From assembly GCA_012178725.1 (NCBI GenBank), contig GCA_012178725.1_3030.1: a stretch of DNA of 64,000 nt, one strand, 5' to 3'. The position numbers and the translations under genes are program-made. This DNA is from a phage. The notes under the pieces were generated by a model. It saw nothing but the letters and a program-made list of their open reading frames with translations, was not told the DNA's origin and ran no database searches. Below, one piece after another: positions 3,001 to 43,654 of the stretch. Positions within the stretch are counted from its first letter, which is position 1. Each line of letters opens with the position of its first letter.

Positions 3001-3871
3001 GCGCAATAAAGCCGGAAATATAACATTTAATATCAACGGTACAGTAACACCGATAAATGTTAATGCTTCAGGAACATTGAATGCAAATGGCGTAGCAACA
3101 TTTGGTAATTCAGTCACTGCAACTGGTGAAATTATTTCTCGAAGCGCAAATGCTTTCCGTGCTATTAACGGAAATTATGGTTTCATTGTTCGCAACGATG
3201 GATCAGTAACGAATTTTATGCTTACTGCATCGGGTGATCAGACTGGTGGATTCAATGGATTACGTCCTTTAGCTATCAATAATGCATCTGGTCAAGTAAC
3301 AATTGGCGAAAGTTTAATTATTGCCAAAGGTGCTACTATAAATTCAGGCGGTTTGACTGTTAACTCGAGAATTCGTTCTCAGGGTACTAAAACATCTGAT
3401 TTATATACCCGTGCACCAACATCTGAAACTGTAGGATTCTGGTCAATTGATATTAACGATTCAGCCACTTATAACCAGTTCCCGGGTTATTTTAAAATGG
3501 TTGAAAAAACTAATGAAGTGACTGGACTTCCATACTTAGAACGTGGCGAAGAAGTTAAATCTCCTGGTACACTGACTCAGTTTGGTAACACACTTGATTC
3601 GCTTTACCAAGATTGGATTACTTATCCAACGACACCAGAAGCGCGTACTACTCGCTGGACACGTACATGGCAGAAAACCAAAAGCTCTTGGTCAAGTTTT
3701 GTTCAGGTATTTGACGGAGGTAACCCTCCTCAACCATCTGATATCGGTGCTTTACCATCTGATAATGCTACAATGGGGAATCTTACTATTCGTGATTTCT
3801 TACGAATTGGTAATGTTCGCATTATTCCTGACCCAGTGAATAAAACTGTTAAATTTGAATGGGTTGAATAA
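2..3871 (+). CDS. 34: Long tail fiber proximal subunit gp34
   Basis: 1289-aa ORF starting MAEIKRKFRAEDGLDAGG; length and sequence match T4 gp34 as recalled; followed by 35-36-37-38. Confidence 0.95.
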   Translation: MAEIKRKFRAEDGLDAGGDKIINVALADRAVGTDGVNVDYLIQENTVQQYDPTRGYLKDFVIIYDNRFWAAINDIPKPAGAFNSVRWRALRTDANWTTVSSGPYQLKSGESISVDTAAGNDITFTLPSTPIDGDTIVLQDIGGKPGVNQVLITAPVQSIVNFRGQQVRSVLMTHPKSQIVLIFSNRLWQMYVADYSREAVVVTPASLYQAQSNDFIVRRFTSASAINIKLPRFANHGDIINFVDLDKLNPLYHTIVTTYDETTSVQEVGTHSIEGRTSIDGFLMFDDNDKLWRLFDGDSKARLRIITTNSNIRPNEEVMVFGANNGTTQTIELQLPTDISVGDTVKISMNYMRKGQTVKIKAAGEDKIASSVQLLQFPKRSEYPPETKWVTVQELVFNGETNYVPVLQLAYIEDSDGKYWVVQQNVPTVERVDSLNNSTRARLGVIALATQAQANADLENSPQKELAITPETLANRTATETRRGIARIATTAQVNQDTTFSFADDLIITPKKLNERTATETRRGVAEIATQQETNTGTDDTTIITPKKLQARQGSESLSGIVTFVSTAGATPASSRELNGTNVYNKNTNNLVVSPKALDQYKATPTQQGAVILAVESEVIAGQSQEGWANVVVTPETLHKKTSTDGRIGLIEIATQSEVNTGTDYTRAVTPKTLNDRRATESLSGIAEIATQVEFDAGVDDTRISTPLKIKTRFNSTDRTSVVALSGLVESGTLWDHYTLNILEANETQRGTLRVATQVEAAAGTLDNVLITPKKLLGTKSTEAQEGVIKVATQSETVTGTSTNTAVSPKNLKWIVQSEPTWAATTLIRGFVKTSSGSITFVGNDTVGSTQPLESYEKNGYAVSPYELNRVLANYLPLKAKAADTNLLDGLDSSQFIRRDIAQTVNGSLTLTQQTNLSAPLVSSSTATFGGSVSANSTLTISNTGTATRLIFEKGPQTGTNPAQTMTVRVWGNQFSGELDTTRSTVFEVSDETSSHFYSQRNKAGNITFNINGTVTPINVNASGTLNANGVATFGNSVTATGEIISRSANAFRAINGNYGFIVRNDGSVTNFMLTASGDQTGGFNGLRPLAINNASGQVTIGESLIIAKGATINSGGLTVNSRIRSQGTKTSDLYTRAPTSETVGFWSIDINDSATYNQFPGYFKMVEKTNEVTGLPYLERGEEVKSPGTLTQFGNTLDSLYQDWITYPTTPEARTTRWTRTWQKTKSSWSSFVQVFDGGNPPQPSDIGALPSDNATMGNLTIRDFLRIGNVRIIPDPVNKTVKFEWVE
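1380..2460 (+). repeat. Tandem ~40-aa coding repeats in the gp34 shaft (TPxxL..RxATExxxG..IATQ motif, at least 6 copies)
   Basis: Motif RTATETRRG(I/V)A(R/E)IAT and ITPKKL recur in the translation; the repeats also generate the spurious antisense ORFs at 1357-1660. Confidence 0.8.
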
Positions 3872-3879
3872 GAGGTATT

Positions 3880-4995
3880 ATGGAAAAATTTATGGCAGAG
3901 TTTGGACAAGGATATGTCCAAACGCCATTTTTATCGGAAAGCAATTCAGTAAGATACAAAATAAGCATAGCGGGTTCTTGCCCGCTTTCTACAGCAGGAC
4001 CATACGTTAAATTTCAGGATAATCCTATCGGAAATCAAACATTTAGCGCAGGCCTTCATTTAAGAGTTTTTGACCCTTCCACCGGAGCATTAGTTGATAG
4101 TAAGTCATATGCTTTTTCGACTTCAAATGATACTACATCAGCTGCTTTTGTTAGTTTCATGAATTCTTTGACGAATAATCGAATTGTCGCTATATTAACT
4201 AGTGGAAAGGTTAATTTTCCTCCTGAAGTAGTATCTTGGCTAAGAACCGCCGGAACGTCTGCTTTTCCATCTGATTCTGTATTGTCAAGATTCGACGTAT
4301 CATATGCTGCTTTTTATACTTCTTCTAAAAGAGCTATTGCATTAGAGCATGTTAAATTAAGTAATAGAAAAAGCACAGATGATTATCAAACTATTTTAGA
4401 TGTTGTATTTGACAGTTTAGAAGACGTCGGAGCTACCGGGTTTCCAAGAAGAACGTATGAAAGTGTTGAGCAATTCATGTCGGCGGTTGGTGGAACTAAT
4501 AACGAAATTGCGCGTCTACCAACTTCAGCTGCTATAAGTAAATTATCTGATTATAATTTAATTCCTGGTGATGTTCTTTATCTTAAAGCACAGTTATATG
4601 CTGATGCTGATTTACTTGCTCTTGGAACTACAAATATATCTATCCGTTTTTATAATGCATCAAATGGATATATTTCTTCAACACAAGCTGAATTTACTGG
4701 GCAAGCTGGGTCATGGGAATTAAAGGAAGATTATGTAGTTGTTCCAGAAAACGCAGTAGGATTTACGATATATGCACAAAGAACTGCACAGGCTGGTCAA
4801 GGCGGCATGAGAAATTTAAGCTTTTCTGAAGTATCAAGAAATGGCGGAATTTCAAAACCTGCAGAATTTGGCGTCAATGGTATTCGAGTTAATTATGTCT
4901 GTGAATCCGCTTCACCTCCGGATATAATGGTACTTCCTACACAAGCATCGTCTAAAACTGGTAAAGTGTTTGGACAAGAATTTAGAGAAGTTTAA
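3880..4995 (+). CDS. 35: Long tail fiber hinge connector gp35
   Basis: 371-aa ORF 8 nt after gene 34; sequence matches T4 gp35 as recalled. Confidence 0.93.
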   Translation: MEKFMAEFGQGYVQTPFLSESNSVRYKISIAGSCPLSTAGPYVKFQDNPIGNQTFSAGLHLRVFDPSTGALVDSKSYAFSTSNDTTSAAFVSFMNSLTNNRIVAILTSGKVNFPPEVVSWLRTAGTSAFPSDSVLSRFDVSYAAFYTSSKRAIALEHVKLSNRKSTDDYQTILDVVFDSLEDVGATGFPRRTYESVEQFMSAVGGTNNEIARLPTSAAISKLSDYNLIPGDVLYLKAQLYADADLLALGTTNISIRFYNASNGYISSTQAEFTGQAGSWELKEDYVVVPENAVGFTIYAQRTAQAGQGGMRNLSFSEVSRNGGISKPAEFGVNGIRVNYVCESASPPDIMVLPTQASSKTGKVFGQEFREV

Positions 4996-13235: not shown

Positions 13236-13276
13236 TTTCTAATCTCCGTAATTCTGTATCAGTAGTTGATAGTTGT

Positions 13277-13306
13277 ATAGTACCACAGTATGCTTTGGTT
13301 GTAAAC
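13277..13306 (-). promoter_or_regulatory. Early promoter (GTTTAC-N18-TACTAT) upstream of motA
   Basis: Reverse strand reads GTTTACaaccaaagcatactgtggTACTAT with an A/T-rich upstream tract. Confidence 0.6.
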
Positions 13307-13321
13307 CGTTTTGTGAAAAAA

Positions 13322-13357
13322 TTTTTAAAATAAAAAAGGGAGAGCCTCGGCTCTCCC
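13322..13357 (-). terminator. Intrinsic terminator after gene 52/motA.1
   Basis: gggagagc/gctctccc stem, then TTTTTTATTTT on the - strand. Confidence 0.65.
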
Positions 13358-16447: not shown

Positions 16448-16696
16448 AACTTTTTTAAAAATATTCGTAATAAATGTGAATACCAATCACTACTGCCGAA
16501 ACTTGCGCAACCCACCACGCACAAGCAATAAGTACAGAATTAAAAATTTTCATAATAACCTCATCACAAAAGTAAATGTTAAACAAATTACTGGAATACT
16601 AATTAACCAAACAAAACACCACCACAATGAACTCATAGTTCAATCTCAGCGATTTTCATTTTATTCTCCAAATCTGTATCAGTATTTGATAGTTGT

Positions 16697-16726
16697 ATAG
16701 TACCACGGTCCTTGTGGTATGTAAAC
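16697..16726 (-). promoter_or_regulatory. Early promoter (GTTTAC-N18-TACTAT) downstream of denB
   Basis: Same architecture and conserved leader CAACTATCAAATACTGATACAGA. Confidence 0.6.
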
Positions 16727-20964: not shown

Positions 20965-20994
20965 ATTATACCACATCCTTGTGGTAAAGTAAAC
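20965..20994 (-). promoter_or_regulatory. Early promoter (GTTTAC-N18-TATAAT) upstream of rIIA.1/rIIA
   Basis: Reverse strand reads GTTTACtttaccacaaggatgtggTATAAT; the -35 overlaps the gene 39 stop. Confidence 0.65.
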
Positions 20995-22811
20995 TACTGG
21001 CTCATCCATTCTTTACGAAGGTCAGCATTATCTCCCATGAGCATTTCAAAAAGCTCTTTCCAGTTCTCAGGAAGTTTAACAACATCATATACTGGATTTT
21101 GAATCATCTCACGATATTCAGATTTTTCCAAAGAGCCAAGTCCTTTAATATAACGGATGCTATGTTTAGGTAGAGCATCTTTGGCACTCTCATATTCAGC
21201 GACTGTATAAAACCATTCTTGTTTTTTACCGACCTGAGCGATGATTACAGGAGTTTTGACAAAGCGAATTCGTCCTTGCTCAAACAGTTCTGGCCAATTA
21301 CTAAAAAATCCAAGAAGAGAAGGATAAATGCTTCCTAGACCATCATGGTCAGCATCAGTCATAATAGCAATATTATGATAATTCAAGTTTTCAGCTTTTT
21401 CACCAAGAACTAGACCAGTGATTGCGCAAATATCAAACAGTTCTTTGTTTTTAAGCATATCTGCATAAGACATACCCCAGCTATTAAGAACTTTACCACG
21501 CAATGGATAACCACCGTGAAGTTCTTTATCACGAACATCAATAAGATATCCGATAGCAGAATCACCCTCAGTCAAGAAAAGAGTAGTGTCAGCATCTTTA
21601 CCGCAAAGATTCGCTTTGATATGTTTATGAACCTTAGCTTTAGAAGCCTTTTTAGCTGCTTTAGTTTCTGCTGCTTTTTCTGCCGCCAATTTACGAGCCA
21701 AAGCAGCTTCAATAATCGGCATTAGAATTGCTTCATTATTTAGAATAGCACGTGAAATCTTTTTAGCATCAAGTTGAATATGACTACGGATTTCACCAAA
21801 TGGAGAAGTCAAACGCTCTTTAGTTTGAGAATCAAATCGCATGTTTTTCATATCACGAACAAACATAACGATAGTCAAACATTCTTTGACACGCGCTTTG
21901 GTTACATCAATTTTGAACTTACGTTTGATTTGTGGAATAAGGTCTTCACAAATATCATCCATAACACAGTCAATGTGATGGCCACCATTCTTAGTATGAA
22001 TGTTATTCACATAAGTTAATTGACGAAAACCATCCGGTGAACGACCAACTGCAATAGAACAATTTTCTTGTTCTTGAACGATAGCATGCTCATCATATTG
22101 GCGTGCATATTTCTTAAAATTACCCTGAACCTTTTTACCATTAAAGGTAAATTGAATATCAGGATAAACAACAGCAAGTGTCTGGAGACGATCTAGTGTA
22201 ATGTCAAGATAAACTTGGGACAGCTCATTAGTTTCAAATGACATAAAATCAGGAATGAAAGTAACACGAGTTCCTTTCCATTTTCCTGGAATAGTTTCCC
22301 ATGATTTATTTTCCATGCCATTTGAACAACGAACTACAATATTATTTTGACCATCGCCAGTTTCACCAACAAACATCACAGAAAAAATGTTAGTTAAACT
22401 AGAACCAACACCGTTCATACCGCCGGTGACGCGTTCTTTATCATCACCGAAGTTACCACCTGCTTTTGGAATAGTCCATGCAGCAACAGGACCAGGAATT
22501 TCTTCACCGGTAGGTGTTTTAACCATCGCTTGTGGAATACCGCGACCGTTATCTTCAACTGTTACTTGATTGTTTTTAATAGTAACGTTAATTTTATTTG
22601 CGAATTTAAACTTAGTACGAATACCTTCATCTACTGAGTTATCGATAATTTCATCAATAAGCTTAACAAGACCAGGTACATACTGAACACTTTCCCATTT
22701 ACCAAACAGAAAGCGCTCATGCATTTCATTAGCAGAAGAACCAATGTACATGCCGCTACGCTTTTTGATATGTTCAATATCGCTCAGAATTTTAATTTCA
22801 TTCTTAATCAT
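20994..22811 (-). CDS. 39: DNA topoisomerase II large subunit gp39, uninterrupted
   Basis: 605-aa ORF from MIKNEIKIL (the track's first M is a GTG one codon upstream) with GyrB ATPase and Toprim regions in one frame. Confidence 0.93.
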   Translation of the reverse strand: MIKNEIKILSDIEHIKKRSGMYIGSSANEMHERFLFGKWESVQYVPGLVKLIDEIIDNSVDEGIRTKFKFANKINVTIKNNQVTVEDNGRGIPQAMVKTPTGEEIPGPVAAWTIPKAGGNFGDDKERVTGGMNGVGSSLTNIFSVMFVGETGDGQNNIVVRCSNGMENKSWETIPGKWKGTRVTFIPDFMSFETNELSQVYLDITLDRLQTLAVVYPDIQFTFNGKKVQGNFKKYARQYDEHAIVQEQENCSIAVGRSPDGFRQLTYVNNIHTKNGGHHIDCVMDDICEDLIPQIKRKFKIDVTKARVKECLTIVMFVRDMKNMRFDSQTKERLTSPFGEIRSHIQLDAKKISRAILNNEAILMPIIEAALARKLAAEKAAETKAAKKASKAKVHKHIKANLCGKDADTTLFLTEGDSAIGYLIDVRDKELHGGYPLRGKVLNSWGMSYADMLKNKELFDICAITGLVLGEKAENLNYHNIAIMTDADHDGLGSIYPSLLGFFSNWPELFEQGRIRFVKTPVIIAQVGKKQEWFYTVAEYESAKDALPKHSIRYIKGLGSLEKSEYREMIQNPVYDVVKLPENWKELFEMLMGDNADLRKEWMSQ

Positions 22812-22838
22812 CACTTATCCTCGTTTGGTTTCGGGAAT

Positions 22839-22880: not shown

Positions 22881-23153
22881 TTATTTAAAACGGATAGTCG
22901 AATCCTTGAAGAATAGACCAGAACATACGGTTCCTTCTACTTTCTGCCCGGTAGGTCCAATAGCGCGAAATCCAGTATGTTGGAAATCATTTTCAGAGCA
23001 ACCGAACCAATTGTATCCAGTGATTTCAATATTAGTAAAACCGCTTGATGACAAAATTTTGGTTGCATTATCAGCATCAGTACATCCTGCTAAAGACACT
23101 GCTAATACTAATGCTGCGATAGAACGATTAATATATTTCATAATTTCACTCAA
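22881..23153 (-). CDS. Predicted lipoprotein (90 aa)
   Basis: Signal peptide with lipobox LAGC; alternative start at MKYINR. Confidence 0.6.
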   Translation of the reverse strand: MSEIMKYINRSIAALVLAVSLAGCTDADNATKILSSSGFTNIEITGYNWFGCSENDFQHTGFRAIGPTGQKVEGTVCSGLFFKDSTIRFK

Positions 23154-23517
23154 ATTTAATGGCTTGAAGAAGACTAATAATTCTCAAGCGACTTCTTTCA
23201 TCTTTAACTGTAAAAGAAAGAGGGTCACCAGATTTCATAGTGATGGTGCATCCAAAATCAAAATCTTCTGTAACTTCTTCGAAGAAGTCAAATTCTTCAT
23301 CATAAATTAGAACATTACTCTGAAAGCTGTGAAGAATTTTTCCATCATTTCCAGATGCTGTACTAATCATTGTAACATTATGACCTTTCATATCTTCAAC
23401 GATAAATTCGCTTGTAGATATTACTGCATTAATAGAACCGTTCCTATGAATAGCAGAAAATAGATATTTCTTTTCTTCACCTTCGCGAACACGATATTTC
23501 TTACCGATTTTAAACAT
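23146..23517 (-). CDS. Hypothetical protein (123 aa)
   Basis: ORF in operon orientation. Confidence 0.55.
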   Translation of the reverse strand: MFKIGKKYRVREGEEKKYLFSAIHRNGSINAVISTSEFIVEDMKGHNVTMISTASGNDGKILHSFQSNVLIYDEEFDFFEEVTEDFDFGCTITMKSGDPLSFTVKDERSRLRIISLLQAIKFE

Positions 23518-23698: not shown

Positions 23699-24124
23699 TT
23701 ATTCCTTAAAGTGTGCTTTCAACATCTGATACAAGGACCATGCCTGTTCATTATTTTCAATAGTAACTTTCATGACCGGGAATTCTGTGAAATCTTCTAT
23801 TTGTTCTTGCTCTTTCTCTTCCTGCTCTTGCTCTTCAGCTGCCTGGTATGGATTTTCAACTTCATCAAAGAACCCAGCTTCGCTAGTAGAAAGCCAGATA
23901 AAGTTTTCGTCAAGGATATCACCATGTGTTGCATATCCAACTGTGCCAGTAGATGTCACAATTTTAGTAGGACGACCAAGATGGTCAACATCTAAAATTT
24001 TAAAAGGATGCATACCTAAACGGCGCGCATAGATTCCGTTATCAGTATGATCTTTAATAAAATTTTCTTGAGCTTGTTTATTTTTAAATTGATACCATTT
24101 ATTAACTTCAAATTTAATAGCCAT
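23699..24124 (-). CDS. Hypothetical acidic protein (141 aa), goF position
   Basis: Size and position as T4 goF; sequence identity not verified. Confidence 0.55.
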
Positions 24125-24339
24125 TAATAAGTTTCCTTCCAGTAAGTTGTGCCATCTTCAGTAATTTCACGAAATACACCGTAAATTGGTTGTTTATCAC
24201 CAACCTTTTCATACACATAAACCGAAGTCAAGTGAGTAAACTTAACGGTATGTTCTTTTTGAACTACTACCAAATCTGGATCGAATAGTACATCTTCAAA
24301 TTCGTCATTAGTGCAATTCTGAACAATTTTACGTTTCAT
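24124..24339 (-). CDS. Hypothetical protein (71 aa), cef position
   Basis: Size and position as T4 cef; not verified. Confidence 0.5.
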
Positions 24340-24352
24340 TACAATTTCCTCA

Positions 24353-24634
24353 TTAATTGAACAGTGGAGCGATGCGTTTCAGAAGAGTAGCAGCACCTTT
24401 AGCGAATTTTACATCATGAAAAACAGTTTCTTCTTCCGTTACAACACGAGCTTTAATGTTTTCACAATCCCAATTTTTGCGAACAATCTTCAAAAGCTGC
24501 AGTAAATCTTTACATTCAGCAATATCGATAACACATCCACGAGAATCTTCCATTATCGCACGATAACCGTAAGCCATACCATAATCATTGAAAGATTGCT
24601 CGATGATAATTAAATTTTCCATTTTATTCTCCAA
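24353..24634 (-). CDS. Hypothetical protein (93 aa)
   Basis: ORF downstream of a promoter-like element. Confidence 0.55.
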   Translation of the reverse strand: MENKMENLIIIEQSFNDYGMAYGYRAIMEDSRGCVIDIAECKDLLQLLKIVRKNWDCENIKARVVTEEETVFHDVKFAKGAATLLKRIAPLFN

Positions 24635-24719
24635 GTTGTTTTCTGTATCAGTAGTTGATATTGATATAGTACCATAATCAACTACTGATGTATATAGTTT
24701 TATGAAAAAATTTTAAACT

Positions 24720-25211
24720 TTATGCATAGCGAGCTTTGCTATAGTGTTTAATCCAACTTTCAGGAATGACTTTGTATGTTCCTAAAAATACCGCGTTGTA
24801 TAACTTAACGCCATCTTCTACCCATTGATCAGTAATGTATGCACACATAGCGCGAGTACGGTTAACAACACCTTCCTCACCTTCAGTAAATTCAAACTCA
24901 TAAGGAGCAACGAACTTAATAGCCTGACCGAGTTTCCACTTAAAGTCTACACCTACATGCGAAGTATCAATCGTTTCAATTCCTTTAGCGGGAACAGCTT
25001 TCAAAAACGCAGGCTCAAGAAATTTCCATCGAACATAACCAAACTGAGGTTTAGACATTCCATCTTTAGGAATGATACGCACTTTTACTTCAGAATCTTC
25101 ATCTTTAACACCATGTTTAAGCTGAATGCTTACGACTTCAACCAATTTTCCTGCTGCTTTAGAACGGGATTTATCAGATACACGAGCAATTTCACCGATA
25201 TTAATATTCAT
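24720..25211 (-). CDS. motB: MotB-like DNA-binding protein
   Basis: 163-aa ORF in the motB position upstream of dexA. Confidence 0.75.
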   Translation of the reverse strand: MNINIGEIARVSDKSRSKAAGKLVEVVSIQLKHGVKDEDSEVKVRIIPKDGMSKPQFGYVRWKFLEPAFLKAVPAKGIETIDTSHVGVDFKWKLGQAIKFVAPYEFEFTEGEEGVVNRTRAMCAYITDQWVEDGVKLYNAVFLGTYKVIPESWIKHYSKARYA

Positions 25212-25255
25212 AATTATCTCTCACTTGTTAAAAAGATTTTATACTCCGCAGGACC

Positions 25256-25285
25256 ATTATACTCTGGTCCCAAGAGTTTGTAAAC
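25256..25285 (-). promoter_or_regulatory. Early promoter (GTTTAC-N18-TATAAT) upstream of motB
   Basis: Reverse strand reads GTTTACaaactcttgggaccagagTATAAT. Confidence 0.6.
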
Positions 25286-25785
25286 TAGCTTACACGAACA
25301 TTAATCACTGCGCTGCGAGGAACTACAGAGTACTCTCCAGCATGAACTACGTTCAGAAGTTCAACACCATCTTCAATCCACTGATCAGTTACCCAACCGC
25401 CAATCGGATTCGCGAATGGACGACGAATATAAACTGCCTTACACAACAAATCAGTCGGGTCTTCAATTTTTTCAACTGGTGTTACATACATAGAAACTAA
25501 ATCCATATCAATATGGGATTTTTCTTGTTCTTCTTTTTCAATTTCTGTCAATAAATTGAAATCTTCTTCATAGATGATGAATGATGATACCCTTCCATAA
25601 TAGTTTCTAATTTCCATGTACACTGTACCAATGAGAATTCCGCTATTAACACTAATAACAGTAAAAGGATATCCGCCAGTTGTACCAAGAAGTTCCCAAA
25701 ACTTGCTATCAGTCGTATTCGACATTGTCTGGAAATCAATTTCAGATGGTTTTTTCATTTGATACGTAGTATTAATTTTAATCAT
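25285..25785 (-). CDS. MotB paralog (166 aa)
   Basis: C-terminus GGWVTDQWIEDGVELLNVVHAGEYSVVPRS aligns with the MotB C-terminus YITDQWVEDGVKLYNAVFLGTYKVIPES. Confidence 0.6.
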   Translation of the reverse strand: MIKINTTYQMKKPSEIDFQTMSNTTDSKFWELLGTTGGYPFTVISVNSGILIGTVYMEIRNYYGRVSSFIIYEEDFNLLTEIEKEEQEKSHIDMDLVSMYVTPVEKIEDPTDLLCKAVYIRRPFANPIGGWVTDQWIEDGVELLNVVHAGEYSVVPRSAVINVRVS

Positions 25786-25794
25786 AATTTTCCT

Positions 25795-26307
25795 TTAATC
25801 TAAGGTAATAAAGCCTTTTAATTCGGCATGCGATTTGCGAAACATTACTTGATGCCCACCAATGATAACTTGATCATCTGGCACTTCATAAATCGCAATG
25901 TACATTCCACGATCTTTTAAGTCTTCACGCTCTTCTCGAGTAAACCATCTCATTATATCATATTCACTAGCGAAAGCAAAATGATATAATGCAATAAACC
26001 ACAATGGAATATAATTTTCAATTCGTGAATAATCTTTATTCCATTTAGTTTTAATAGCATCATTAGCATTTTCAACTAATAACTTATCATCGTGCGGAAT
26101 AGGAATACTTTCATGACTTTCATAATTATCGCTATGATGATGAAATGACGATGAATTAATACCGCAAAATTTTAGCCAAGTTCGAGTTTTCATAGAATCA
26201 AATCCACGATAAGGAGTTGATTGAACACATAACTCTTGCCTAATTTTCATTATACCACTATCATCATTTAATGCGCTAAACGATGATTCAACACGATAAA
26301 TTTTCAT
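25795..26307 (-). CDS. Hypothetical protein (170 aa)
   Basis: ORF-track frame trimmed to MKIYRVESSF, which has a GAGGA ribosome-binding site; the longer start lies upstream of the promoter. Confidence 0.55.
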   Translation of the reverse strand: MKIYRVESSFSALNDDSGIMKIRQELCVQSTPYRGFDSMKTRTWLKFCGINSSSFHHHSDNYESHESIPIPHDDKLLVENANDAIKTKWNKDYSRIENYIPLWFIALYHFAFASEYDIMRWFTREEREDLKDRGMYIAIYEVPDDQVIIGGHQVMFRKSHAELKGFITLD

Positions 26308-26334
26308 TTTATTATCCTCAGTAGCTATGGTGTT

Positions 26335-26364
26335 ATAATACCACAACTGACCGAGGAAGTAAAC
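26335..26364 (-). promoter_or_regulatory. Early promoter (GTTTAC-N18-TATTAT) downstream of dexA
   Basis: Reverse strand reads GTTTACttcctcggtcagttgtggTATTAT. Confidence 0.6.
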
Positions 26365-26370
26365 AACTTT

Positions 26371-27054
26371 TTATCGTTTAGTTGGAAGAGATAGAGGATC
26401 GCATTCTTCCTCTGATGGAGCGTCTTCTAGACCCATAGCGTATCGCAAAGCATACTTCATCATCAGGATGTCTTTCGCACAGTCATGAATAGAATCATGT
26501 GCAACGAATCCATCTAAAGTTCCCTTTGGAAGAGGACATGTGGTCATATCACGAACAAGCAGAAGTGCTTCAATTCTGGTACGAATATCACGCTGATTCC
26601 AGAATTTACACGGTTCTAACTTAAATGTGTCAAGCTCATTCTCAGAAACACCATTAAGACGTTGAATATCACGAATGAGATCGACTAAAATTGGAAAATC
26701 AAACGACATTCCACGGCACCAGCCTTGAGATTTCCAAGGATCGATATTATGCGCATTGATGTAATCATTAAATTTTGCAATACCATCGATAGTGCTTACA
26801 TCTTCATCTGATGGTGCAATATTTTTTCTAGCTTCAGGTGATTGATTTTTCCACCATTCGATAGTGCTTTTAGTAAAAAGACGATGTCCTTTTTGGCTTT
26901 TTAAATCAAATTTGATTTTAATGCCGCGTGAAACTAATTCATCAAATGTTTCAACAACTTCCGGGTTAGGGTCAAAAGCAATTACAGCCAAATCAATAAC
27001 AGCTGCTTTTTCACCACTTCCCATCGTTTCAAAATCTATAATAAAATCAAACAT
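26371..27054 (-). CDS. dexA: Exonuclease A DexA
   Basis: 227-aa ORF with DEDD-type exonuclease N-terminus; length as T4 DexA. Confidence 0.9.
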   Translation of the reverse strand: MFDFIIDFETMGSGEKAAVIDLAVIAFDPNPEVVETFDELVSRGIKIKFDLKSQKGHRLFTKSTIEWWKNQSPEARKNIAPSDEDVSTIDGIAKFNDYINAHNIDPWKSQGWCRGMSFDFPILVDLIRDIQRLNGVSENELDTFKLEPCKFWNQRDIRTRIEALLLVRDMTTCPLPKGTLDGFVAHDSIHDCAKDILMMKYALRYAMGLEDAPSEEECDPLSLPTKR

Positions 27055-27311
27055 TAAATTTTCCTTGCTAAATCGCGAATTTGACCTACAGTATAGTCTT
27101 GAATATAAACTTTATTGATAGGCTCATCAATAAATTTTGCCATAGATTCAATGTCTTTTTGTATTTCTTCAAGACTGTATACTATCTTTAAAGCTTTTTC
27201 GCGAATAGTAATATTTTCAGGACCCTGATTTTCTTTAATGACAGCTTTAACATTTGCCATAAGAGATTTAAATTGGTACCAACTTAATTCAATCATTAAT
27301 AATCGCCTCAT
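27054..27311 (-). CDS. Hypothetical protein (85 aa), dexA.1 position
   Basis: ORF overlapping the dexA start. Confidence 0.6.
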   Translation of the reverse strand: MRRLLMIELSWYQFKSLMANVKAVIKENQGPENITIREKALKIVYSLEEIQKDIESMAKFIDEPINKVYIQDYTVGQIRDLARKI

Positions 27312-27549
27312 AAAGATAGCTAATTTCGCCTAAAACATAATCATTAATTGTAACAGTTTTCACTTCACCGCAAAAGAATTCTAACGCAATTAAATCTCGT
27401 TCAATTTCTTCTAATTGAAGCATCAACTTATTAGATTCAATTTTTACAGTTTCACGATTTTTACCATGAGCAATTTCATAAATTTCGCTAATTTTATCCT
27501 GAAGAAAATAAAACTGATCTTTAGTTATTTCCACGAATAGCTTCCTCAA
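27289..27549 (-). CDS. Hypothetical protein (86 aa), dexA.2 position
   Basis: ORF in operon orientation. Confidence 0.55.
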   Translation of the reverse strand: MRKLFVEITKDQFYFLQDKISEIYEIAHGKNRETVKIESNKLMLQLEEIERDLIALEFFCGEVKTVTINDYVLGEISYLYEAIIND

Positions 27550-27786: not shown

Positions 27787-29106
27787 TCACACATAAAACA
27801 CATCATAACGACCACGAGTGACACCAACATAAAGAAGCTGCTGAGCTAATTCAGCATCTGCATAATGAATACAAGGCGTATAAATGAAAGCACGGTCTAC
27901 AGACATACCCTGCGCTTTATGGAATGTTGATGCAGGAAGTGCTTTCACTTTACTAAACTGTGATTTAGCATCCCAAAAATCGCTCCACGGAGCTTTTCCG
28001 CCTTTGTTCCAATTTTTATAAGTTTCTGCTGTTTTACCTAAAAATAGGTTAAACTTATACAATTCTTCATCAGATGAAATTATTTTAATCTTTTCACGAT
28101 AATATTCATCATCGCCATAAGTTTCTACTGTTAAATCCCAATGACGAATTAAGTATTCCCCAGAAACACCACGAGCTTTAACAAACGTTGATGTATACTC
28201 TGCTTCTATAATACGAACTAATTGTCCGTTATTAAAAATAATTTCTGACACAGGCTTTCCATCAATTTTATATGTTTTAATTAATGGTTCCTGCATTACA
28301 ATAATTTCACCGACAATAAAATCTTTATCAGTTTCAAAAATCTTTTTACGAATGATGTTATTTAACTTGTCAACAGATTTATTCGTAAATGCCATTACGC
28401 GATTTTCAAACAAATCATCTAGTGATTTTACGATTGAAAAATAATTTACCATAAAATCGCGTAAAGCAGTATCACCAGTAAATCCACGTACTCCATGCCC
28501 GTCAACAACTTTGTCATAAATCCACTTACCGTTGCGAACGTCAGTAGCTACATCAATAATAGGAGCATTACTGCGTTTAACTTCAGTGAGTTCACACTGA
28601 TAAAAATCTTTATGTGTAAAGAATGGACTGATATAAGCAGTATTTTCTCCTGGGTCAACAGGTCTAATTTGCTTATTATCACCTATTCCAATTATAGTAC
28701 ACCACGGCGGGATAGTTGAAAGCAGAATTTTAAATAGCTTTCTATCATACATTGACACTTCATCGCAGATTAATACCCTGCATTTAGCTAAATCTGGTAC
28801 TTCCTTCTGCTCAAAAAGAACGTTTTCTTCATATGTTACTGGGTTAATTTTAAGAATACTATGAATAGTACTTGCTTCTTTCCCTGATAGTTTTGAAAGA
28901 ATCTTTTTAGCTGCATGAGTAGGAGCTGCTAAAATAATACCAGTTTCACCCGTAGATATTAAAGCTTCAATGATGAATTTGGTAAGAGTAGTCTTACCGG
29001 TGCCAGCAGGTCCATTAATAGTTACATGATGTTTCTTTTCTTTAATAGCCTTCATAACAATGTTAAAGGCATTTTTCTGGCCTTCGGTCAAATCATCAAA
29101 TGTCAT
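27787..29106 (-). CDS. dda: DNA helicase Dda
   Basis: 439-aa ORF with Walker A GPAGTGKTT; length as T4 Dda. Confidence 0.95.
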   Translation of the reverse strand: MTFDDLTEGQKNAFNIVMKAIKEKKHHVTINGPAGTGKTTLTKFIIEALISTGETGIILAAPTHAAKKILSKLSGKEASTIHSILKINPVTYEENVLFEQKEVPDLAKCRVLICDEVSMYDRKLFKILLSTIPPWCTIIGIGDNKQIRPVDPGENTAYISPFFTHKDFYQCELTEVKRSNAPIIDVATDVRNGKWIYDKVVDGHGVRGFTGDTALRDFMVNYFSIVKSLDDLFENRVMAFTNKSVDKLNNIIRKKIFETDKDFIVGEIIVMQEPLIKTYKIDGKPVSEIIFNNGQLVRIIEAEYTSTFVKARGVSGEYLIRHWDLTVETYGDDEYYREKIKIISSDEELYKFNLFLGKTAETYKNWNKGGKAPWSDFWDAKSQFSKVKALPASTFHKAQGMSVDRAFIYTPCIHYADAELAQQLLYVGVTRGRYDVFYV

Positions 29107-43524: not shown

Positions 43525-43582
43525 TTTGTGTTCCTCCGTAGTTGATAGTTGTATAGTACCACAGAGGAACGGTCTTGTAAAC
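43524..43582 (-). repeat. Promoter-leader cassette copy 2
   Basis: About 55 bp nearly identical to 16389-16447, including -35, -10, ribosome-binding site and ATG. Confidence 0.75.
43552..43581 (-). promoter_or_regulatory. Early promoter (GTTTAC-N18-TACTAT)
   Basis: Reverse strand reads GTTTACaagaccgttcctctgtggTACTAT. Confidence 0.6.
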
Positions 43583-43654
43583 AGTTTTGTGAAAAAATTT
43601 TTAATGAATCCAAAAGGTCCAGAATCATCTGTTTTTCATAAGTATAGATTTATA

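What the first reader, a model, noticed from the sequence alone, without database searches (positions are those of the whole stretch)
25285..25785. MotB paralog immediately downstream of motB
The 166-aa protein shares its C-terminal ~35 residues with MotB (TDQW(I/V)EDGV.L.N.V..G.Y.V.P.S) while the N-terminal part differs. This indicates a duplicated DNA-binding module.
Basis: seen in the sequence. Interest (0 to 1): 0.45.

Follow-up and report, generated by a model that had tools for sequence, protein, structure and literature searches.

The report
motB.1: known MotB-tail paralog in T4-like phage
The 166-residue protein is MotB.1 of a T4-like phage; it really does share its C-terminal domain with its neighbour MotB, but this was published in 2021, and the shared domain is acidic and does not look like the part that binds DNA.

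Summary
The ORF at 25285-25785 (minus strand, 166 aa) is motB.1 of an AR1-type Tequatrovirus (99.7% DNA identity to phage AR1).

- **Similarity to MotB (24720-25211).** BLASTP gives 16/29 identities, E 9e-10. The local alignment score is 98, against 29.3 +/- 4.7 for shuffles (z 14.6, 0 of 2000). Profile-profile comparison extends the homology to the whole C-terminal domain: MotB.1 113-164 matches MotB 93-157 (98.6% probability).
- **Already published.** Son et al. 2021 described the shared C-terminal domain with different N-terminal domains and proposed a duplication. Kim et al. 2025 described the MotB.1 N-terminal domain as an LSm-like barrel, as in GoF and Frd.2.
motB.1 lies upstream of motB in the direction of transcription. 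The shared part is about 55 residues, not 35. "DNA-binding module" is unproven.
- **Age.** Silent codon positions are saturated, so the duplication is old.
- **Side finding.** The 119-aa MotB.1 of the T4 reference genome results from one extra G. That G is absent from the 11 other T4 records listed in the search.

The parts
25285..25785 (-). motB.1 coding sequence (166 aa, including the TAG stop at 25285-25287). This is the finding.
   Evidence: ORF list. DNA is 99.7% identical to phage AR1, where it is annotated motB.1 (AR1_012). Full-length match to phrog_2333, E 1.8e-83. 226 homologues found, nearly all from T4-like phages.
25540..25785 (-). MotB.1 N-terminal domain, residues 1-82: an LSm/SH3-like beta-barrel of the GoF/Frd.2 type. 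It is not shared with MotB.
   Evidence: AF2 model with pLDDT 82-89 and strands 7-10, 41-48, 54-60, 66-72, 79-81 plus helix 23-36. phrog_622 (the GoF family) hits residues 1-103, E 2.2e-4. The family profile matches the GoF paralog ar1_005 at 92% probability. Published as an LSm-like fold by Kim et al. 2025.
25462..25539 (-). Acidic linker, residues 83-108. It contains a 22-residue (66-nt, about 25476-25541) insertion relative to T4-type MotB.1. The insertion carries the short motif HIDMDLVSMYVTP.
   Evidence: Residues 86-105 have pLDDT below 50. The insertion is seen in the protein alignment and in the DNA alignment with T4. The motif recurs at other positions in relatives.
25288..25461 (-). 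MotB.1 C-terminal domain, residues 109-166: the module shared with MotB. It is predicted as a five-stranded small beta-barrel.
   Evidence: hhalign 98.6%, E 9.5e-16. PF17613 at 33.4 bits. AF2 pLDDT 86-91, strands 117-120, 128-138, 141-148, 151-156, a 3-10 turn, then 160-162. Invariant columns L, F, D, W, E, L, N, V across both families.
25312..25398 (-). Most conserved core of the shared module (MotB.1 residues 130-158, GWVTDQWIEDGVELLNVVHAGEYSVVPRS).
   Evidence: BLASTP 16/29 identical, E 9e-10. tblastn cross-hit within the window.
24720..25211 (-). motB coding sequence (163 aa), the paralog that carries the same C-terminal module.
   Evidence: PF17613 over the full length, E 1.1e-96. phrog_1671, E 2.2e-76. 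AR1 annotation.
24741..24950 (-). MotB C-terminal domain, residues 88-157: the counterpart of the MotB.1 C-terminal domain, with a 13-residue beta-hairpin extension.
   Evidence: hhalign register. AF2 strands 97-110, 115-132, 135-142, 145-150 and 154-157, pLDDT 80-93. Joint alignment A5.
25008..25211 (-). MotB N-terminal KOW-like barrel, residues 1-68. It is basic and not shared with MotB.1.
   Evidence: AF2 strands 8-11, 23-30, 41-46, 56-61 and 65-67. Net charge +4 here and a family median of +5. Pfam KOW (PF00467) is hit above its cut-off by the distant family members P0242 and P0250. HHpred KOW assignment by Son et al. 2021.
25256..25284 (-). Sigma-70 / T4-early-type promoter (TTTACA, 17-nt spacer, TATAAT) directly after the motB.1 stop codon and 45 nt before the motB ATG.
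   Evidence: The consensus scan gives 11 of 12 matches, the best site in the region. The sequence is identical in T4. This is a consensus match only; activity was not tested.

Best explanation
**Shown.** The ORF is motB.1, an accessory early-region gene of a T4-like (AR1-type Tequatrovirus) phage. It lies between motB.2 and motB, and all three are transcribed on the minus strand.

The protein has three parts:
- an N-terminal LSm/SH3-like barrel of the GoF/Frd.2 type (residues 1-82);
- a disordered acidic linker (83-108);
- a C-terminal small beta-barrel of about 55 residues (109-164).

The C-terminal barrel is homologous to the C-terminal domain of MotB. MotB differs in having a basic KOW-like N-terminal barrel.

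**Origin.** The pair arose by an old duplication of the C-terminal module, or of the whole gene, followed by exchange of the N-terminal domain. It is not a recent repeat.
- Silent codon positions are saturated.
- Each subfamily keeps its own signature across hundreds of phages: VELLNVVH in MotB.1, VKLYNxVF in MotB.
- KOW plus C-terminal domain is probably the older arrangement. The most distant members have it and sit at the dexA-motB-cef position without any motB.1.

**Inferred, about 40% likely.** The shared domain is not the DNA-binding element. I think it is an SH3/Tudor/KOW-like adaptor barrel that presents a conserved acidic-aromatic strand (TDQWxEDG) to a common partner, or is used for self-association.
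- In MotB, nucleic-acid contact would come from the basic KOW head.
- In MotB.1, any nucleic-acid contact would come from the LSm-like head, possibly to RNA.

The two proteins would then bring different heads to the same target during early infection. H-NS/StpA, which co-purify with MotB, are the obvious candidates for that target.
For: **Identity and synteny.**

**Homology of the C-terminal domains.**
- BLASTP E 9e-10.
- Shuffle z 14.6, 0 of 2000.
- Pfam 33.4 bits against a cut-off of 25.
- hhalign 98.6%, E 9.5e-16.
- phrog_1671 (MotB) aligns to MotB.1 79-162, E 1.6e-15.
- Identical strand order in the two AF2 models, mean pLDDT 80.1 and 80.5.
- Foldseek of the MotB.1 model retrieves a MotB-type protein at E 2.2e-6.

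**N-terminal domain of the GoF type.**

**Old duplication.** Third-position identity is 33% against 28% expected. The two subfamilies have separate signatures.

**Narrow family.**
- 33 hits among 1.84 billion representative proteins, about 28 of them real and all small T4-like phage proteins.
- 783 of 50,697 phage records carry the module, about 2 copies per genome.
- The distant KOW-type member P0250 sits at the dexA-motB-cef position in a genome without motB.1.

**Against a DNA-binding shared domain and for an adaptor barrel.**
- Charges.
- A 3-10 turn between strands 4 and 5 and no helix between strands 3 and 4.

**Literature.** MotB co-purifies with H-NS and StpA and alters the H-NS footprint (abstracts).
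Against: - The mechanism is inference only. No partner, nucleic-acid binding or phenotype is known for MotB.1.
- A T4 motB.1 deletion has normal burst size and latent period, and plasmid MotB.1 had little effect on a gene 41 reporter (Kim et al. 2025).
- Son et al. 2021 assign the MotB C-terminal domain to a cold-shock-type OB fold by HHpred. That family often binds nucleic acid.
- An acidic net charge does not exclude specific nucleic-acid binding.
- Some MotB homologues are not basic overall: family pI ranges from 4.7 to 9.4.
Confidence: 0.8

Rival explanations
1. The reading of the first reader and of the literature: the shared C-terminal domain is a nucleic-acid-binding OB-fold (cold-shock type). 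Both MotB and MotB.1 would then bind DNA or RNA through it, and the different N-terminal domains would modulate that binding.
For: - HHpred in Son et al. 2021 places MotB 69-149 in SCOPe b.40.4.5, with archaeal eIF5A as the closest hit.
- MotB binds DNA tightly and without sequence specificity.
- Small five-stranded barrels of this size often bind nucleic acids.
- The MotB.1 N-terminal domain is LSm-like, so the protein as a whole could plausibly be a nucleic-acid binder.
Against: - The shared domain has a median net charge of -4 (MotB.1 family) and -1 (MotB family). Its conserved charged columns are all acidic.
- MotB.1 has pI 4.62.
- The positive charge of MotB is in the KOW N-terminal domain, median +5.
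- The predicted secondary structure lacks the helix between strands 3 and 4 that is typical of OB folds. It has the 3-10 turn between strands 4 and 5 that is typical of SH3-like barrels.
- No experiment maps DNA binding to this domain.
Confidence: 0.25
2. The similarity is a recent tandem DNA duplication or a gene-conversion tract between adjacent genes. It would then be a local feature of this phage rather than a conserved two-gene arrangement.
For: The genes are adjacent and in the same orientation. Of the 16 identical residues in the core, 10 use the same codon.
Against: - Nucleotide identity in the core is only 50%, and third positions are at 33% against 28% expected by chance.
- blastn of the region against the window finds no motB/motB.1 DNA match.
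- Both subfamilies, each with its own signature, occur across hundreds of T4-like genomes.
Confidence: 0.03
3. The match is chance or a compositional artefact in an AT-rich phage genome.
For: The BLASTP segment is short, at 29 residues.
Against: - z = 14.6, and no shuffle of 2000 reached the score.
- A curated Pfam threshold is passed.
- hhalign gives E 9.5e-16.
- The strand-for-strand predicted structures are the same.
- The same match has been reported independently in print.
Confidence: 0.01

Closest known systems
T4 MotB.1 (NP_049627 / P39415; Son et al. 2021, Viruses 13:84; Kim et al. 2025, Comput Struct Biotechnol J 27:2051)
   Same: It is the ortholog. It occupies the same position between motB.2 and motB. 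Protein identity outside the insertion is 95-96% (alignment A1), and the DNA alignment including the insertion has 91% column identity. It has the same LSm-like N-terminal domain and MotB-type C-terminal domain, and the same early promoter follows the stop codon.
   Different: The window's protein is 166 aa because of a 22-residue linker insertion. The common form is 143-144 aa. The T4 reference entry is 119 aa because of one extra G that removes the last three strands of the C-terminal domain. Resequenced T4 genomes encode the intact 143-aa protein.
T4 MotB, 'modifier of transcription' (Pfam PF17613, phrog_1671)
   Same: The C-terminal five-stranded barrel is homologous, with the shared motif GxxTDQWxEDGxxLxNxV. 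It is an adjacent, co-oriented, non-essential early gene.
   Different: Its N-terminal domain is a basic KOW-like barrel instead of an acidic LSm-like barrel. MotB has a 13-residue hairpin insertion in the C-terminal domain and a basic tail. Its pI is 9.0 against 4.6. DNA binding, H-NS effects and toxicity have been shown for MotB only.
[quoted passage not shown]
   Same: The N-terminal bent five-stranded barrel is shared. The links are phrog_622 at E 2.2e-4, hhalign to ar1_005 at 92%, and Foldseek to the GoF of phage VR7 (rank 40).
   Different: These proteins have unrelated C-terminal domains, none of MotB type. A single GoF sequence against the MotB.1 profile is not significant.
SH3-like small barrels: Tudor (53BP1, PHF19, ERCC6L2), PWWP, chromo, KOW (Spt5, NusG), EF-P domain I
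   Different: Sequence identity is only 10-20%, and the C-terminal-domain profile finds nothing in the PDB by sequence. I could not tell which domain gave each hit. No aromatic cage or ligand has been tested.
Cold-shock-type OB fold / eIF5A C-terminal domain (published HHpred assignment for the MotB C-terminal domain)
   Same: It is a five-stranded barrel of similar size, and it is the literature's assignment.

Membership tests
MotB.1 orthologous group (phrog_2333) | Full-length sequence match to the family profile | tested here: met
   phrog_2333 E 1.8e-83, residues 1-165. 82-99% identity to MotB.1 of T4-like phages.
MotB.1 orthologous group (phrog_2333) | Position between motB.2 and motB, in the same orientation, in the gene 39-dda early region | tested here: met
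   Gene order in the window and in AR1 and T4 annotation.
Pfam PF17613 (motB, modifier of transcription) | Score above the curated gathering threshold (25 bits) | tested here: met
   33.4 bits, E 5.2e-8. Most homologues carry precomputed PF17613.
Pfam PF17613 (motB, modifier of transcription) | Match over the whole model, i.e. KOW-like N-terminal domain plus C-terminal domain as in MotB itself | tested here: not met
   Only profile positions 114-153 of 162 are matched. hhalign aligns the C-terminal domain only. MotB.1 is therefore a partial, C-terminal-domain-only relative and not a MotB ortholog.
Phage LSm-like fold family (GoF, MotB.1, Frd.2; Kim et al. 2025) | N-terminal bent five-stranded antiparallel beta-sheet | tested here: met
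   AF2 model: five strands in residues 7-81 at pLDDT 82-89.
Phage LSm-like fold family (GoF, MotB.1, Frd.2; Kim et al. 2025) | Detectable sequence or profile link to GoF-type N-terminal domains | tested here: met
   phrog_622 E 2.2e-4 on residues 1-103. hhalign to the GoF paralog ar1_005 gives 92% probability, E 5.3e-7. The link to the single GoF sequence is not significant.
Canonical Sm/LSm (Hfq-like) proteins | Ring oligomer and RNA binding through Sm1/Sm2 motifs | not testable with these tools
   Kim et al. report no confident AlphaFold3 homomultimer and no reporter effect. Nothing was tested here.
OB-fold, cold-shock DNA-binding type (SCOPe b.40.4.5), for the shared C-terminal domain | Strand1-2-3, helix, strand4-5 topology and structural neighbours that are OB folds | tested here: inconclusive
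   No domain mapping exists in the literature I read. Electrostatics argue against it: the C-terminal domain has net charge -4 / -1 and the KOW N-terminal domain +5.
KOW domain (PF00467) | KOW motif in the N-terminal barrel | tested here: not met
   MotB.1 has no KOW hit. KOW is found only in MotB-type members such as P0242 and P0250.

The most novel reading that the evidence does not exclude
The shared C-terminal domain may be an acidic Tudor/SH3-like adaptor specific to T4-like phages, not a DNA-binding OB fold. It would dock both MotB and MotB.1 on one common partner, with H-NS/StpA or another basic nucleoid or RNA-associated protein as candidates. The phage would then send a DNA-binding KOW head and an RNA-binding LSm-like head to the same target. 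On this reading, the published lack of phenotype for MotB.1 partly reflects use of the 119-aa form truncated by the reference-sequence frameshift, together with redundancy with MotB.
Probability: 0.15. Interest if true: 0.5.

Novelty: already known. Interest (0 to 1): 0.15.

Why it matters
For the scan, this finding is a correct rediscovery. The shared C-terminal domain of MotB and MotB.1, and the duplication idea, were published in 2021. The MotB.1 N-terminal fold was published in 2025.

Three points from this analysis go beyond the literature I read:
1. The shared domain is consistently acidic and looks SH3/Tudor-like. MotB's DNA binding is therefore more likely to sit in the KOW head, which is directly testable with four purified domains.
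2. The T4 reference genome truncates MotB.1 through a single extra G. That G is absent from every other T4 record listed. The published MotB.1 experiments appear to have used the 13.8-kDa truncated form, which lacks half of the conserved domain. The negative results may need repeating.
3. The module is confined to a very small family. About 28 clusters at 50% identity were found among 1.84 billion representative proteins, all in T4-like phages of enterobacteria.

Tried and rejected
- **PDB sequence search.** The C-terminal-domain profile (A5) searched against all PDB sequences at E up to 10 gave no hit.
- **Spurious hits in the representative search.** The same profile against 1.84 billion representatives returned five long repeat proteins (P0243, P0244, P0246, P0248, P0251; 4-7 short stretches each). 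Pfam run on four of them shows Ig-like or phage-tail repeats. P0248 was judged from its four short stretches only. I rejected all five.
- **GoF against the MotB.1 profile.** The single GoF sequence was not significant (0.2% probability). The link to the GoF family rests on phrog_622 and on ar1_005.
- **A third copy of the module.** A six-frame HMM search and tblastn of the 64-kb window found only motB and motB.1.
- **'2 places per record' in the first DNA search.** I suspected another paralog. The second places turned out to be the roughly 75-nt T4 early-promoter consensus, repeated at 13252, 16653 and 43535.
- **Terminator between the genes.** None was found.
- **Domain-level structure comparison.** This was not possible.
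- **Supplement of Kim et al. 2025.** It is not held, so I could not confirm the exact MotB.1 construct sequence.

Full report
**What the window is.** The region 24300-26400 is 99.7% identical to Escherichia phage AR1 (Tequatrovirus, Tevenvirinae). It matches 588 phage records. All genes in this region lie on the minus strand. From high to low coordinates, which is the direction of transcription, the order is:
- dda (27787-29106)
- dexA.2 and dexA.1
- dexA (26371-27054)
- motB.2 (25795-26346)
- motB.1 (25285-25785)
- motB (24720-25211)
- ar1_010
- cef
- goF (23699-24124)
- 39.2
- ar1_005 (23146-23517)
- 39.1
- gene 39 (20994-22814)

The finding's ORF is therefore motB.1. It is 5' of motB, not downstream of it.

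**Checking the observation.** The similarity is real by every test.
- BLASTP aligns MotB.1 130-158 with MotB 124-152, 16/29 identical, E 9e-10.
- The local alignment score of 98 compares with 29.3 +/- 4.7 for 2000 shuffles. That gives z = 14.6, and no shuffle reached the observed score.
- Pfam PF17613 (motB) hits MotB.1 residues 121-160 at 33.4 bits, above its 25-bit cut-off.
- I built family alignments of 41 MotB.1-type and 37 MotB-type proteins. hhalign between them gives 98.6% probability, E 9.5e-16. MotB.1 113-164 aligns with MotB 93-157, with a 13-residue insertion in MotB.
- The MotB PHROG aligns with MotB.1 from residue 79 to 162, E 1.6e-15.

The shared unit is therefore the entire C-terminal domain, about 55 residues. 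The N-terminal halves are unrelated.

**Structure.** Both AlphaFold2 models are confident outside the linkers.
- The MotB.1 model has mean pLDDT 80.1. It shows an N-terminal barrel (residues 1-82), a linker at 86-105 with pLDDT below 50, and a C-terminal domain. The C-terminal strands are 117-120, 128-138, 141-148 and 151-156, then a 3-10 turn, then 160-162.
- The MotB model has mean pLDDT 80.5. It shows an N-terminal barrel (1-67), a disordered stretch at 70-83, and a C-terminal domain. The C-terminal strands are 97-110, 115-132, 135-142 and 145-150, then a 3-10 turn, then 154-157.

Under the hhalign register, strands 2 to 5 correspond one to one. Strand 1 is lengthened into a hairpin in MotB.
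- Foldseek of the MotB.1 model against viral models retrieves its own family, a MotB-type protein (E 2.2e-6), a KOW-domain protein of Serratia phage PS2, and a GoF.
- No OB-fold protein is named in the top 60 of either list.
- The 3-10 turn between strands 4 and 5, and the lack of a helix between strands 3 and 4, fit an SH3-like barrel better than the OB fold proposed from HHpred by Son et al..

This point is only provisional. I could not search with the isolated domain, and the N-terminal domains are also SH3-like.

**What is already known.**
- Son et al. 2021 (PMC7827196) state that T4 MotB and MotB.1 share a conserved C-terminal domain but have different N-terminal domains. They place motB.1 immediately upstream of motB, suggest that one gene may have arisen by duplication of the other, and sort 102 homologues into four categories.
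- Kim et al. 2025 (PMC12152347) show that the MotB.1 N-terminal domain (1-82) has the same LSm-like fold as GoF and Frd.2. They also show that a motB.1 deletion has no growth phenotype and that plasmid MotB.1 has little effect on a gene 41 reporter.

My searches agree. phrog_622, the GoF family, hits MotB.1 1-103. The MotB.1 family profile matches the GoF paralog ar1_005 at 92%. The finding is a correct rediscovery.

**Is the shared module DNA-binding?** MotB binds DNA non-specifically and alters H-NS footprints. No paper I read maps this activity to a domain. The electrostatics point away from the shared domain.

| Region | Median net charge |
|---|---|
| MotB KOW N-terminal domain | +5 |
| MotB C-terminal barrel | -1 |
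| MotB.1 C-terminal domain | -4 |

- The only charged columns conserved across both families are acidic, in DPTD and in TDQWxEDG.
- The window's MotB.1 has pI 4.62 and net charge -10. MotB has pI 9.04.

I therefore think the shared barrel is more likely a partner-binding or self-association module. The heads would then supply nucleic-acid contact. This is inference, at about 40%. The OB-fold DNA-binding reading keeps about 25%.

**Age and spread of the duplication.**
- In the 39-codon core the two genes are 50% identical at the nucleotide level. Third positions are 33% identical, against 28% expected from composition.
- blastn finds no DNA similarity between the two genes.
- Each subfamily keeps its own signature.
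- A profile of the C-terminal domain searched against 1.84 billion representative proteins finds 33 hits. About 28 are real, and all are 100-250-aa proteins.
- tblastn finds the module in 783 of 50,697 phage records, with 1512 places. All are T4-like phages of Escherichia, Shigella, Klebsiella, Yersinia, Salmonella and related genera.
- The most divergent members have a KOW head (Pfam KOW hits).
- One of these, P0250, sits at the dexA-motB-cef position of a 173-kb T4-like contig that lacks motB.1.

KOW plus C-terminal domain is therefore probably the older arrangement. MotB.1 would be a later fusion of the module to a GoF-type head.

**Local details.**
- motB.1 starts 7 nt after the motB.2 stop codon, with an AGGA ribosome-binding site.
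- Its TAG stop is followed directly by TTTACA-17-TATAAT. This is an 11-of-12 match to the promoter consensus and is identical in T4. It suggests that motB has its own early promoter.
- The AR1-type protein carries a 22-residue insertion in the linker relative to the common 143-144-aa form.
- The insertion contains the motif IDxDLVSxYxxP. In relatives this motif appears before the C-terminal domain or at the extreme N-terminus. It is predicted to be disordered.

**A side result that affects the literature.** The T4 reference sequence (NC_000866.4 = AF158101.6) has GGATTGGAAGATGG where the window has GGATTGAAGATGG.
- The extra G shifts the reading frame after ...TDQWI. This gives the annotated 119-aa (13.8-kDa) product and leaves the last 29 codons intact in another frame.
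- The 11 other T4 records listed in the search, plus RB55 and RB59, match over 205 nt instead of 206.
- Two resequenced T4 genomes, MT984581 and HM137666, annotate an intact 143-aa MotB.1.
- Son et al.'s own table shows the T4 entry scoring 56 bits against 106-128 bits for other MotB.1 proteins.
- Kim et al. describe their MotB.1 as 13.8 kDa and mostly insoluble, and they designed their mutant constructs from NC_000866.4 coordinates.

They may therefore have studied a protein that lacks three of the five strands of the conserved domain. I could not confirm the construct sequence.

**Verdict.** Novelty: already known. Interest is low for the finding itself, with a modest testable refinement and one useful annotation correction.

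Noticed in passing
L002 (NC_000866.4) 919-1351; corresponds to window 25285-25400: The T4 reference genome carries one extra G in motB.1. This truncates the annotated protein to 119 aa and leaves a 29-codon remnant (EDGVELLNVVHAGEYSVVPRSAVVAILN) in another frame. The 11 other T4 records listed, plus RB55 and RB59, lack the G, and two resequenced T4 genomes annotate an intact 143-aa protein. The published MotB.1 experiments appear to have used the 13.8-kDa truncated form.
   Followed up: yes
window 23146-23517 (-): ar1_005 (123 aa; absent from T4 and labelled 'no match' in the AR1 annotation) is a full-length GoF paralog. It hits phrog_622 at E 2.2e-28, and hhalign to the MotB.1-family N-terminal domain gives 92%. 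The window therefore has three genes with LSm-like heads within 2.7 kb: ar1_005, goF and motB.1.
   Followed up: partly
window 25471-25509 (MotB.1 residues 93-105); also P0031, P0054, P0235, P0238, P0240: The short conserved motif [IV]D.D[VL].[SC].Y..P[VI] lies in a linker predicted to be disordered, and it changes position among relatives. It sits before the C-terminal domain in some proteins, at the extreme N-terminus ahead of the LSm-like domain in the 158-183-aa forms, and is absent from the T4-type form. It could be a short linear motif. Its function is unknown.
   Followed up: partly
window 27054-27311 and 27289-27549 (-): dexA.1 and dexA.2 (85 and 86 aa) are clear paralogs of each other. 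Their local alignment score is 95, against 27.7 +/- 5.0 for shuffles, z = 13.5.
   Followed up: no
window 24616-24717, 13252-13328, 16653-16705, 43535-43604: A repeat of about 75 nt (AAAATTTTTTCACAAAACTGTTTACA ... GTGGTACTATAC ... ATCAACTACTGATACAG) recurs in intergenic regions. I read it as the T4 early-promoter consensus with its upstream A/T tract. The copy after motB also forms a 13-bp inverted repeat (24647-24689).
   Followed up: partly
P0245 (43 aa, from the representative library): This is a chimeric ORF that joins the N-terminus of MotB.2 (MKIYRVESSFSIL) to the last 29 residues of MotB.1. It is presumably a deletion across motB.2-motB.1 in some T4-like genome.
   Followed up: no
L005 (173-kb T4-like metagenome contig) 3302-4432: In a distant T4-like genome, a GIY-YIG (SegE-like) homing-endonuclease gene sits directly upstream of the motB homologue, where motB.1 and motB.2 lie in the window. 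This is consistent with the region being a hot spot for gene gain and loss.
   Followed up: no
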